Origin: a virus
Reading direction: 5' to 3' (one strand)
Length of the DNA: 64,000 nucleotides
Virus record (IMG/VR): IMGVR_UViG_3300009709_000022
Coordinates: 32,525-96,524 of that record
Positions 1-63,942 of this stretch are shown here, one piece after another. Every line of letters starts with the position of its first letter. The first letter of the stretch is position 1. The notes under the pieces were generated by a model, which worked only from the letters and a program-made list of their open reading frames with translations, was not told the origin of the DNA and did not search any database. The position numbers were made by a program, and so were the translations under genes.

Positions 1-554
1 TGCCGCAACACTTCTACAGTGCAGTGGCATCCGTCATAGTACGTGGGACATCCATCTGGTCCTTCATGTGGGCGTGTATTACCCGCGCCAAGCCCCCTCC
101 GCGCCTCATCGCGTTCGGCCTGCACCTGGCGCAGTTGGAGACTTTCTTTCTCCAGCATCATGCGCAAACTCGCAGCATCATTGCGCTCCCGACACCATTC
201 GTTGTTGGCGGTGCGCCATCGTTCGCGCCATTGCTGAATAGTGAGGTTGGGCCAAGGTATGCCGTTCTCGTCTATATCTGATTCCGCCTGTGCCGCGCTG
301 GGATGTTCTACTGCCGGGGCAGGGCGCTTGGCGTCCTCCTTTGACCTAGGTAGCAGTCCTAACCCCTTGCATTCAACACAAGTGCCATAGCGCCCGCCGT
401 ATCCATTACATTTCCAGCACAGTCTTCCATTGCCATTCGGGACTGCGCGTCCCGGATCATCTGCATCACCCACAGGTTCGCATTCCTGAAGCTCATTGTT
501 GGCTGGGGTACCTAATACGATCTCTTCCGCCGTCTTCTCACTCTGCTTGCGCAT
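1..554 (-). CDS. Hypothetical protein with CxxCxGxG zinc-finger motifs (runs off left edge)
   Basis: Manually translated: MRKQSEKTAEE...CWKCNGYGG...CVECKGLG...; GGAG upstream of ATG at 554; open to position 1. Confidence 0.7.
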   Translation of the reverse strand, partial: MRKQSEKTAEEIVLGTPANNELQECEPVGDADDPGRAVPNGNGRLCWKCNGYGGRYGTCVECKGLGLLPRSKEDAKRPAPAVEHPSAAQAESDIDENGIPWPNLTIQQWRERWRTANNEWCRERNDAASLRMMLEKESLQLRQVQAERDEARRGLGAGNTRPHEGPDGCPTYYDGCHCTVEVLR

Positions 555-733
555 CTAGTCGTCTCCGTGGGCTTGTACTTAGGTTCATGCCAACCGTCTC
601 GCTTGCCGCAGTAGAAGGATCCTTCGGATGTGGCCCATCGGAACACTCTTCCATCTCCCAAGCCATCAGGAACGCGGGTTTTTATAATGACTTTTCCGCA
701 GTTCCCGCATGTCTCTGTCTGCTGCTTGCTCAT
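512..733 (-). CDS. Small hypothetical protein (CxxC)
   Basis: ORF track; start overlaps stop of 730..1194. Confidence 0.55.
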   Translation of the reverse strand: MSKQQTETCGNCGKVIIKTRVPDGLGDGRVFRWATSEGSFYCGKRDGWHEPKYKPTETTRCASRVRRRRKRSY

Positions 734-63338: not shown

Positions 63339-63497
63339 ATGCTCATCGTCGTCATTCTCATTCTGTTGCTTTTTGGTGGTGGTCCAGCGTGGTACGGCAA
63401 TCGTGCCGGCTGGGGATATGGTGCCAGCTTTGGTCCGATTGGCTTCCTACTCCTTTTACTGCTGGTGCTGTATATTTTCGGCGGTCTTCGTTTTTAG
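63339..63497 (+). CDS. DUF3309-like small membrane protein
   Basis: MLIVVILILLLFGGGPAW...WGYG...GFLLLLLLVLYIFG. Confidence 0.7.
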   Translation: MLIVVILILLLFGGGPAWYGNRAGWGYGASFGPIGFLLLLLLVLYIFGGLRF

Positions 63498-63498
63498 C

Positions 63499-63528
63499 TT
63501 GACGCCAACTCTGGTCTGGAGATAGATT
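63499..63528 (+). promoter_or_regulatory. sigma70-like promoter of tRNA array
   Basis: TTGACG-18-TAGATT; predicted +1 at 63535. Confidence 0.7.
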
Positions 63529-63534
63529 CATCAC

Positions 63535-63609
63535 ATGAAGTTGTTACTCAGTTCGTCACTCTATCTGTCCTCGTATAGCGGGGCGTGGGATCGTGCGCGA
63601 CTGAGTTAG
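63535..63609 (+). CDS. Attenuator leader peptide MKLLLSSSLYLSSYSGAWDRARLS
   Basis: ATG at predicted TSS; codons 3-15 encode only Leu/Ser/Tyr; overlaps antiterminator arm. Confidence 0.75.
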   Translation: MKLLLSSSLYLSSYSGAWDRARLS

Positions 63610-63633
63610 CTCTTGACCAGTGACAGCGGTACG

Positions 63634-63667
63634 AAACCCTCGCCTAACCGGCGGGGGTTTTTGCTTT
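63634..63667 (+). terminator. Intrinsic terminator (attenuator) directly before first tRNA
   Basis: AAACCCTCGCC-TAACC-GGCGGGGGTTT then TTGCTTT. Confidence 0.85.
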
Positions 63668-63744
63668 GCGGCTGTAGGCAAATTGGCAAAGCCGCTTCCC
63701 TTAAAGCGAAGTGTGTGTGGGTTCGACGCCCACCGGCCGCACCA
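63668..63744 (+). tRNA. tRNA-Leu(UAA), short variable loop
   Basis: Acceptor GCGGCTG/CGGCCGC, anticodon TAA 63702-63704, TTCGA loop, A73-CCA; 5-nt variable region. Confidence 0.85.
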
Positions 63745-63766
63745 GTTCTTTGAATGTTTGATATGT

Positions 63767-63849
63767 GGGGGCGTGGTGAAATGGCAGACACGCTTGTCTT
63801 AGGAACAAGTGCCTTGTGCGTGAGAGTTCGAGTCTCTCCGCCCCCACCA
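63767..63849 (+). tRNA. tRNA-Leu(UAG)
   Basis: GGGGGCG/CGCCCCC, anticodon TAG 63800-63802, extended variable arm, ACCA. Confidence 0.95.
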
Positions 63850-63856
63850 AAGTTTA

Positions 63857-63942
63857 GCCGGCCTGGCGGAATCAGGCAGACGCGCTGCATTCAAAACGCA
63901 GTGTCCTCGGACGTGCGGGTTCGATCCCCGCGGCCGGCACCA
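63857..63942 (+). tRNA. tRNA-Leu(CAA)
   Basis: GCCGGCC/GGCCGGC, anticodon CAA 63892-63894, long variable arm, ACCA. Confidence 0.95.

What the first reader, a model, noticed from the sequence alone, without database searches (positions are those of the whole stretch)
63668..63744. tRNA-Leu(UAA) lacking the long variable arm, a possible nuclease-escape variant
Seen: a 77-nt tRNA with a Leu-type D-arm (3-bp stem, large loop), A73 and anticodon UAA, but only a 5-nt variable region (TGTGT) and a C-C mismatch at 31-39. Established: bacterial tRNA-Leu normally has a long variable arm, and some tRNases (e.g. human SLFN11) select type II tRNAs. Inference: as first gene behind a class II-sensing leader, it may be a functional Leu tRNA that evades a nuclease or toxin recognising the long arm.
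Basis: partly seen in the sequence, partly recalled or inferred. Interest (0 to 1): 0.75.

Follow-up and report, generated by a model that had tools for sequence, protein, structure and literature searches.

The report
Short-armed leucine tRNA in a phage
This phage gene is a real leucine tRNA built without the usual long extra arm, but that design is a known natural type that is standard in actinomycete bacteria and common in their phages, so it is not evidence of an anti-nuclease trick.

Summary
Window 63668-63744 (+) is a 77-nt tRNA with anticodon UAA, a Leu-type D-arm, a 5-nt variable loop, A73-CCA and a C31-C39 mismatch. It is the first of about 30 tRNA genes in a complete 96.5-kb phage from a moss metagenome.

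It is not a one-off deletion variant. It belongs to a conserved family of "type I" (short-loop) tRNA-Leu. In 65 distinct members, 98.7% of pair cells are paired and 19 of 21 pairs show compensatory changes. The family carries Leu anticodons only, all six of them.

The kind is already published. Streptomyces coelicolor has a type I tRNA-Leu(CAA) that its LeuRS charges and E. coli LeuRS does not (PMC6614811). I also find type I tRNA-Leu(CAA) and (UAA) as ordinary chromosomal genes across Actinomycetes, in 94 of 121 sampled genomes and 16 of 16 Mycobacterium. They also occur in more than 60 GenBank phages and in tRNA arrays of other phyla.

The best reading is a working UUA/UUG decoder supplying the phage's rarest Leu codon. 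Nuclease escape has no direct support, though it is not excluded. Charging depends on the unknown host's LeuRS.

Earlier scan notes on other DNA describe short UAA tRNAs that proved to be Arg-derived orphans. This one is different.

The parts
63668..63744 (+). Type I (short variable loop) tRNA-Leu(UAA), 74 nt plus encoded CCA
   Evidence: ARAGORN. Rfam RF00005 gives 50.9 bits. The family covariance model R1 gives 83.2 bits, against 60.0 and 48.7 for the two long-armed Leu neighbours.
63677..63693 (+). D-arm: 3-bp stem GGC/GCC and 11-nt loop AAAUUGGCAAA (A13.A22, A14, A15, G18G19, C20, A20a)
   Evidence: Read. The 17 nt are identical to the D-arm of mycobacteriophage LeBron tRNA-Leu(CAA). The geometry matches that of long-armed bacterial tRNA-Leu. 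This D-arm lies in a Leu-anticodon tRNA in 53 of 54 ARAGORN tRNA calls among 57 public stretches that hold it.
63702..63704 (+). Anticodon UAA in loop C32 U33 U34 A35 A36 A37 G38. The flanking C31 (63699) and C39 (63707) are mismatched.
   Evidence: In alignment A1 this is the only C.C at 31-39 and one of 4 members with C32/G38.
63712..63716 (+). Five-nucleotide variable loop UGUGU. U48 can form the A15-U48 Levitt pair.
   Evidence: In the family, 57 of 65 members have a 5-nt loop and 64 of 65 have A15-U48. Five nucleotides including nt 48 is the published minimum for efficient charging by S. coelicolor LeuRS (PMC6614811).
63499..63667 (+). Context: promoter-like site (63499-63528), leader ORF (63535-63609, MKLLLSSSLYLSSYS..., with one UUA codon), and terminator hairpin with U-tract (63633-63667) abutting the tRNA
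   Evidence: fold z-score -3.7. An earlier scan note, e1-6075739, reads it as an attenuator.
63767..63942 (+). Context: two long-armed (type II) tRNA-Leu genes, UAG (63767-63849) and CAA (63857-63942). The array continues across the contig junction with Ser(GCU) and Tyr(GUA).

Best explanation
The gene encodes a genuine type I tRNA-Leu(UAA). It has a leucine tRNA's acceptor end, D-arm and elbow, and a 5-nt variable loop in place of the long arm. It most likely works as an ordinary elongator. It would be transcribed as the first tRNA of the attenuator-gated Leu/Ser/Tyr block, processed, charged with leucine by the host's LeuRS, and used to read UUA (and probably UUG), the phage's rarest Leu codon.

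The short arm is inherited from a widespread natural family that occurs in actinomycete chromosomes, in phages and in mobile tRNA arrays. It did not arise by deletion in this phage.

Shown here: the gene, its structure, its family membership, the family's covariation, the family's exclusive link to Leu anticodons, and the family's role as the only UUR-reading tRNAs found in some bacteria. Taken from the literature: a type I tRNA-Leu is leucylated by an actinomycete LeuRS. Inferred: that this particular tRNA is expressed, charged and used.
For: 1. Two detectors agree on the gene.
2. The family model R1 scores it 83.2 bits.
3. In alignment A1 of 65 distinct short-loop Leu tRNAs, 98.7% of cells are paired against 68% in shuffles. 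Nineteen of 21 pairs have compensatory changes. A15-U48 occurs in 64 of 65 and A73 in 64 of 65.
4. The exact D-arm motif lies in a Leu-anticodon tRNA in 53 of 54 tRNA calls across IMG/VR and GTDB, with anticodons CAA, UAG, CAG, GAG and AAG. UAA versions exist elsewhere.
5. It carries every E. coli leucine determinant listed in PMC9976931 and PMC6614811 except the arm, which those sources say is not a determinant: A73, U8-A14, A15-U48, G18G19, A20a, U54-A58 and G19-C56.
6. In Jiangella endophytica and Haloactinopolyspora alba every tRNA hit of 80 nt or more is Leu(UAG/GAG/CAG), Ser or Tyr. The CAA and UAA Leu tRNAs found are short-looped.
7. The CAA gene sits next to a conserved ANTAR response-regulator gene across genera.
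8. Of 121 genomes sampled from that class, 94 have hits of 70 bits or more, and 20 of 20 fetched hits are type I Leu. In Mycobacterium the figure is 16 of 16.
9. S. coelicolor LeuRS charges its type I tRNA-Leu(CAA) with kcat/Km 6.25, against 14.2 for type II (PMC6614811).
10. UUA makes up 3.6% of Leu codons, 78 codons in 45 of 101 ORFs. The leader ORF contains one UUA among Leu, Ser and Tyr codons.
Against: - There is no expression or charging data. Only the source metagenome holds the sequence.
- No close relative of this phage with a tRNA region was found, so selection on this copy cannot be measured.
- The C31-C39 mismatch and the possible C32-G38 pair are atypical for the family and could weaken the anticodon arm.
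- E. coli LeuRS cannot charge the Streptomyces type I tRNA-Leu (PMC6614811). Function therefore depends on the host's LeuRS.
- The host is unknown. The nearest cultured phages by capsid protein are only 25% identical, and among those listed only the TM7 (Saccharibacteria) phage has a host outside the Gram-negative groups; none infects an actinomycete.
- The phage encodes no class Ia synthetase.
Confidence: 0.7

Rival explanations
1. Defence-escape variant. The short loop is kept in phages because it removes the handle or cut site used by host toxins and defence nucleases that act on long-armed tRNAs. The phage would then keep translating UUA/UUG when the host's tRNA-Leu is attacked.
For: [quoted passage not shown]
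- MenT3 needs the long loop of tRNA-Ser, and deleting the loop abolishes modification (PMC11541572).
- AbiEii appears to prefer class II tRNAs (bioRxiv 10.64898/2026.01.19.700257).
- Phages and mobile arrays put the type I body on CUN anticodons (UAG, CAG, GAG, AAG), for which the actinomycete hosts examined use type II tRNAs.
Against: - The type I body is a normal chromosomal tRNA in Actinomycetes, so no defence pressure is needed to explain it.
- In this phage only one of three Leu tRNAs is type I, and Ser and Tyr keep long arms.
- I found no known toxin shown to select tRNA-Leu through its arm. MenT3 discriminates against tRNA-Leu.
- No defence or host context is available for this phage.
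Confidence: 0.15
2. Poorly functional or decaying copy. The gene was acquired from the mobile type I pool but is not efficiently charged or used in this host.
For: - It has the only C.C at 31-39 among 65 family members, together with the uncommon C32/G38.
- E. coli-type LeuRS does not charge type I tRNA-Leu.
- The phage's structural proteins point away from actinophages.
- Degenerate family copies exist elsewhere: L051 has a 6-nt anticodon loop, and L009/L019 hold a 5' half only.
Against: - All four stems, the tertiary-pair positions and the encoded CCA are otherwise intact.
- It holds the first position directly behind a leader that contains its codon.
- Type I Leu tRNAs also occur in arrays of 45-50% GC contigs and in Acinetobacter phages, so use outside actinomycetes is plausible.
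Confidence: 0.12
3. A tRNA of another identity carrying a Leu anticodon. It would be charged with a different amino acid or paired with a private enzyme, like the Arg-derived UAA tRNAs noted earlier in this scan.
For: - One GenBank record annotates a family member as tRNA-Gln(caa) (Knocker).
- Earlier scan notes (e1-3924097, e1-3090367, e1-5275562) describe short-loop UAA tRNAs of non-Leu descent.
Against: - The D-arm is of Leu type and was not found in any other isotype among 463 tRNAs compared.
- The body pairs only with Leu anticodons from two unrelated codon boxes.
- There is no G3.U70.
- No synthetase-like gene lies beside it. The neighbours are 56-aa and 52-aa ORFs and tRNAs, and the phage has no PF00133 match.
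Confidence: 0.03

Closest known systems
Type I tRNA-Leu(CAA) of Streptomyces coelicolor (Fan et al. 2019, NAR, PMC6614811)
   Same: Both are bacterial-type tRNA-Leu with a 5-nt variable loop, U8-A14, A9, an A14-A15 / G18G19 / C20-A20a D-loop, A73-CCA and a 7/5 acceptor/T architecture. Streptomyces copies fetched here show the same layout.
   Different: The anticodon is UAA, not CAA. In S. coelicolor the UAA tRNA (bldA) is type II. The D-arm sequence is the GGC-AAAYUGGCAAA-GCC subtype rather than the GCCC-AAYUGGCAG subtype. This copy has a C31-C39 mismatch, is phage-borne, and has an unknown host LeuRS.
Short tRNA-Leu genes annotated in actinobacteriophages (LeBron, Wildcat, Alice, EpicPhail, GodonK) and Acinetobacter Saclayvirus phages
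   Same: They share the family. LeBron tRNA-Leu(CAA) has an identical 17-nt D-arm and is 86% identical over 65 nt. They also sit in phage tRNA arrays.
   Different: Those carry CAA, UAG, CAG or GAG anticodons and mostly lack an encoded CCA. None of the records examined has the UAA anticodon on this D-arm subtype. A metagenome pattern scan for that combination found none.
Chromosomal type I tRNA-Leu(UAA) and (CAA) of Actinomycetes
   Same: Same short-loop architecture, same A15-U48 and A73, and the same UAA anticodon in many.
   Different: Most chromosomal UAA copies use the other D-arm subtype. They are single vertically inherited genes, not part of a phage array.
Phage T5 tRNA-Tyr that resists retron-Eco7/Septu cleavage through its variable loop (PMC13096335, citing PMC11555353)
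   Same: It is a phage copy of a class II isoacceptor whose variable region differs from the host's.
   Different: There the host nuclease, the cut site and the rescue were shown by experiment. Here no nuclease, no host and no rescue are known, and the arm is absent rather than altered.
Animal mitochondrial tRNA-Leu(UUR)
   Same: It is a type I tRNA-Leu that reads UUR, with A73 and A14 as determinants and a weak anticodon stem (PMC9976931).
   Different: The lineage is unrelated, with reduced mitochondrial features. S. coelicolor LeuRS does not charge it.

Membership tests
Bacterial type I tRNA-Leu (as in S. coelicolor, PMC6614811) | Leucine anticodon | tested here: met
   UAA at 63702-63704.
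Bacterial type I tRNA-Leu (as in S. coelicolor, PMC6614811) | Short variable loop of about 5 nt that retains nucleotide 48 | tested here: met
   UGUGU at 63712-63716. In the family, 57 of 65 members have 5 nt.
Bacterial type I tRNA-Leu (as in S. coelicolor, PMC6614811) | Leu-type core: U8-A14, A15-U48, G18G19, A20a, U54-A58, A73-CCA | tested here: met
   All are read directly. They are conserved in the family.
Bacterial type I tRNA-Leu (as in S. coelicolor, PMC6614811) | Sequence and structure similarity to other members | tested here: met
   R1 gives 83.2 bits. All 45 fetched genome hits of 70 bits or more were type I Leu. A Lys tRNA scores 65.7 bits.
Bacterial type I tRNA-Leu (as in S. coelicolor, PMC6614811) | Leucylated by a LeuRS and used in translation | not testable with these tools
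   Only indirect evidence exists: relatives are the only UUR-reading tRNAs found in Jiangella and Haloactinopolyspora, and published kinetics exist for the Streptomyces tRNA.
Canonical bacterial type II tRNA-Leu | Variable arm of more than 10 nt forming a stem-loop | tested here: not met
   The loop is 5 nt. The two neighbouring Leu genes meet this feature.
Defence-evading phage tRNAs (T5 tRNA-Tyr type) | A host defence that inactivates the host isoacceptor, and resistance of the phage copy | not testable with these tools
   The host and its defences are unknown. Only the structural difference is shown.
Orphan Arg-derived tRNA(UAA) with a private synthetase-like enzyme (earlier scan notes) | Non-Leu body and an adjacent synthetase-like gene | tested here: not met
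   The D-arm is of Leu type. The neighbours are small ORFs and tRNAs. There is no PF00133 match in the phage. ArgRS family PF00750 was not searched.

The most novel reading that the evidence does not exclude
Phages and mobile tRNA arrays rebuild leucine isoacceptors, all six anticodons, on the armless type I body. They would do so because it is invisible to host toxins and defence enzymes that grip or cut the long arm of class II tRNAs. In this phage, the type I UAA tRNA at the head of an attenuator-gated Leu/Ser/Tyr block would be the defence-proof member of that block.
Probability: 0.15. Interest if true: 0.7.

Novelty: new member of a known kind. Interest (0 to 1): 0.35.

Why it matters
For this gene the result is mostly a correction. 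A missing long arm in a phage tRNA-Leu is not in itself a sign of counter-defence or of a pseudogene, and annotators can call such genes tRNA-Leu.

Two side results may interest tRNA specialists.

1. Type I tRNA-Leu is far more widespread than the single Streptomyces study implied. It serves the UUR codons across Actinomycetes, including Mycobacterium. This contradicts the statement in a 2023 identity review that tRNA-Leu is long-armed everywhere except in animal mitochondria (PMC9976931).

2. Mobile elements carry the type I body with all six Leu anticodons, also outside actinomycete contexts. Since E. coli LeuRS rejects type I tRNA-Leu, such phage tRNAs could inform host prediction and could serve as natural, partly orthogonal LeuRS/tRNA material. 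The reason mobile elements favour this body is an open, testable question.

Tried and rejected
- **Close relatives of the phage.**
  - The C-terminal 499 aa of the 3176-aa protein found no relative in IMG/VR.
  - Capsid-protein relatives (76-86% identity) are fragments without any tRNA.
  - One fragment holds the big-protein homologue at 37% identity but no tRNA.
  - Conservation of this copy, and of its C.C mismatch, therefore could not be tested.
- **Metagenome scan** for this D-arm with a UAA anticodon: 0 matches. A second scan anchored on the loop, variable loop and T-arm found other type I Leu(UAA) genes but no relative of this phage.
- **Sequencing runs.** Only the source moss metagenome is listed and there is no RNA holder, so nothing can be said about expression. 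Laying its contigs only re-confirmed the sequence.
- **Single-sequence folding** gives a non-cloverleaf minimum-energy structure with z -1.2. This is uninformative for a tRNA, so I used covariation instead.
- **Exact-pattern search** for the published Streptomyces variable loop (ACAGC) in 13 Streptomyces genomes: no match. The gene was found with the covariance model instead, with loop ACAGU.
- **Host inference** from cultured phages gives only 25% identity. The host is left undetermined.
- **Rejected readings:** pseudo-tRNA by deletion of the arm, because the family trait is conserved and covaries; T-box or other Rfam leader, because nothing but tRNAs reached gathering scores.
- **Literature searches** for a description of short-armed phage tRNA-Leu found none.

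Full report
**1. What is there**

The window is the last 64 kb of a 96,524-bp contig with direct terminal repeats. IMG/VR rates it complete. The contig carries 30 ARAGORN-called tRNA genes in blocks that run across the contig junction.

ARAGORN calls tRNA-Leu(taa) at 63668-63744 (+). Rfam RF00005 scores it 50.9 bits against a gathering score of 29.

- a 7-bp acceptor stem, then U8 A9;
- a 3-bp D-stem GGC/GCC with an 11-nt loop AAAUUGGCAAA;
- an anticodon arm whose innermost pair is a C31-C39 mismatch, and anticodon UAA;
- a five-base variable loop UGUGU;
- a standard T-arm, A73 and an encoded CCA.

The next two genes, Leu(UAG) and Leu(CAA), have long arms. Ser(GCU) and Tyr(GUA) follow.

Upstream lie a promoter-like site, a 24-codon ORF (MKLLLSSSLYLSSYS...) that contains one UUA codon, and a 12-bp terminator hairpin with a U-tract that ends one base before the tRNA.

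**2. It is a member of a family, not a private deletion**

- *GenBank phages.* blastn of the 77 nt against GenBank phages finds 63 records: Mycobacterium 46, Acinetobacter 12, Gordonia 4, Rhodobacter 1. All hits listed lie on genes annotated tRNA-Leu, apart from one annotated tRNA-Gln(caa) and one unannotated; those I examined are 73-77 nt long. LeBron tRNA-Leu(CAA) has the identical 17-nt D-arm.
- *Motif scan.* The D-arm motif TAGGCAAAYTGGCAAAGCCGC occurs in 18 IMG/VR contigs and 39 GTDB genome stretches. ARAGORN places it inside a tRNA in 54 of these 57 stretches. Fifty-three of those tRNAs have a Leu anticodon (CAA, UAG, CAG, GAG or AAG), and one has a damaged loop. All of these Leu tRNAs are short: 74-78 nt after setting aside an encoded CCA, apart from one of 79 nt with a 9-nt variable region.
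- *Argument for leucine identity.* A single body type that pairs only with anticodons of the CUN and UUR boxes is hard to explain except by leucine identity, because those two boxes share nothing but their amino acid.
- *Covariation.* An alignment of 65 distinct short Leu tRNAs (A1) fits the class I cloverleaf. In it, 98.7% of cells are paired against 68% in shuffles and 35-49% when partners are slid. Nineteen of 21 pairs show compensatory changes. A15-U48 occurs in 64 of 65 and A73 in 64 of 65.
- *Comparison with other isotypes.* The D-arm geometry equals that of long-armed bacterial tRNA-Leu. The motif was not seen in any other isotype among 463 tRNAs compared.

**3. The kind is already known, and it is a cellular tRNA**

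Fan et al. 2019 (PMC6614811) reported the following.
- S. coelicolor has one type I tRNA-Leu(CAA) with a 5-nt variable loop beside four type II Leu tRNAs.
- Its single LeuRS charges both types, with kcat/Km 6.25 and 14.2 s-1 uM-1.
- Five nucleotides including nt 48 is the minimum loop.
- U8-A14 is a determinant shared by both types.
- E. coli LeuRS cannot charge the type I tRNA.
- The leucine-specific domain of LeuRS decides whether type I is accepted.

Independently of that paper, I found that the type is much more widespread.
- *Jiangella endophytica and Haloactinopolyspora alba.* All RF00005 hits of 80 nt or more are Leu(UAG, GAG, CAG), four Ser and Tyr. Their CAA and UAA Leu tRNAs are short-looped. 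The CAA gene lies next to a conserved ANTAR response-regulator gene, 82-96% identical across genera.
- *Class level.* I built covariance model R1 from A1. It finds hits of 70 bits or more in 94 of 121 genomes drawn evenly from that class. Twenty of 20 fetched hits are type I Leu: 9 CAA, 10 UAA and 1 CAG.
- *Mycobacterium.* In the genus of a Mycobacterium MAG, 16 of 16 genomes have such hits. The fetched ones are CAA and UAA. This agrees with a remark in PMC11541572 that only tRNA-Leu-2, 3 and 5 of M. tuberculosis have long loops.
- *Phylum level.* Across the whole phylum sample only 21 of 101 genomes have a hit.
- *Unpublished genomes.* The tallies include nine unpublished genomes (G029, G051; G074, G081, G090, G098, G109; G185, G229). 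No sequence was taken from them. Leaving them out changes the counts by at most those numbers.

**4. What it most likely does here**

- *Determinants.* The tRNA has every listed E. coli-type leucine determinant except the arm, which those sources say is not a determinant in bacteria.
- *Codon demand.* UUA is the phage's rarest Leu codon: 3.6% of Leu codons, 78 codons in 45 of 101 ORFs.
- *Dependence on the host.* The phage has no class Ia synthetase, so it must rely on the host LeuRS.
- *Conclusion.* The most economical reading is an ordinary rare-codon supply tRNA of the type I family, placed first in the Leu/Ser/Tyr block.

Two caveats keep confidence near 0.7.
- This copy alone among 65 has C.C at 31-39, and it has C32/G38.
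- Charging depends on a type I-competent LeuRS, and the host is unknown. The closest cultured phages by capsid protein are 25% identical Brucella, Tunturiibacter, Myxococcus, Microcystis and TM7 phages.

Type I Leu tRNAs do occur in Acinetobacter phages. They also occur in tRNA arrays of Planctomycetota, Armatimonadota and a Clostridium MAG and in 45-50% GC metagenome contigs. Use outside actinomycetes is therefore plausible.

**5. The escape hypothesis**

Published precedents exist. [quoted passage not shown] MenT3 needs the long loop of tRNA-Ser. AbiEii seems to prefer class II tRNAs. Phages do place the type I body on CUN anticodons, for which the hosts examined use type II.

But the type I body is a normal host architecture in the main host group. 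This phage keeps long arms on two Leu tRNAs, on Ser and on Tyr. No toxin is known to pick tRNA-Leu by its arm. I rate escape at about 0.15.

**6. Verdict**

It is a new member of a known kind. The wider distribution of type I tRNA-Leu, and its spread on mobile elements with all six anticodons, is the more interesting by-product.

Noticed in passing
Loci L115-L161 (GTDB genomes G001, G002, G013-G181, G283, G287): Type I (74-77 nt) tRNA-Leu(UAA) and tRNA-Leu(CAA) are ordinary chromosomal genes across the class that holds Jiangella, Mycobacterium and Streptomyces. Hits appear in 94 of 121 sampled genomes. CUN-reading Leu tRNAs stay long-armed in the genomes checked. This is wider than the single Streptomyces case in print, and it contradicts a 2023 review statement.
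   Followed up: partly
G000:C1:5353-5438 (same phage genome, outside the window): ARAGORN calls an 86-nt tRNA-Lys(CUU) with a variable region of about 15 nt. This is the reverse oddity, a long-armed tRNA of a normally short-looped isotype, in the same phage.
   Followed up: no
L009:157-270 and L019 (match at 547-567, minus strand): Two large IMG/VR contigs (158 kb and 139 kb) share an identical stretch. A type I Leu acceptor 5' strand and D-arm are followed by unrelated sequence, and ARAGORN calls no tRNA there. It could be a truncated copy or a split or intron-bearing gene.
   Followed up: no
L051:1766-1786 (Mycobacterium MAG, 11-tRNA array): A family member with an intact type I Leu body has a 6-nt anticodon loop, and ARAGORN reports 'tRNA-???'. 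It is a degenerate or frameshift-type copy inside a tRNA array.
   Followed up: no
L007:295-369 (Mycobacterium phage Knocker, MZ150786.2): A family member with anticodon CAA is annotated in GenBank as tRNA-Gln(caa). This is probably an annotation error caused by the unexpected short loop.
   Followed up: no
Alignment A1, columns 2 and 78: G1.U72 wobble is the commonest first acceptor pair in the family (39 of 65). The window's tRNA has G1-C72. I do not know what the wobble means for LeuRS or RNase P.
   Followed up: no
window 63339-63497 (+): The 52-aa ORF just upstream of the leader matches Pfam DUF3309 (E 6e-8), a small membrane protein family of unknown function.
   Followed up: no
window 63763-63857, contigs of run X1: Several short contigs from the same moss sample match only the phage's long-armed tRNA-Leu(UAG) at 90-95% identity, and one has a depth of 71.5. 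They are probably tRNA-Leu genes of abundant bacteria in the sample and are a possible lead to the host.
   Followed up: no
L169:7400-9500 (JAESFO010000050.1, 70% GC, 421-kb contig): A 16-tRNA array mixes type I Leu(UAA) and Leu(CAG) with a type II Leu(GAG). It also holds a 69-nt tRNA-Met call with an odd D-arm.
   Followed up: no
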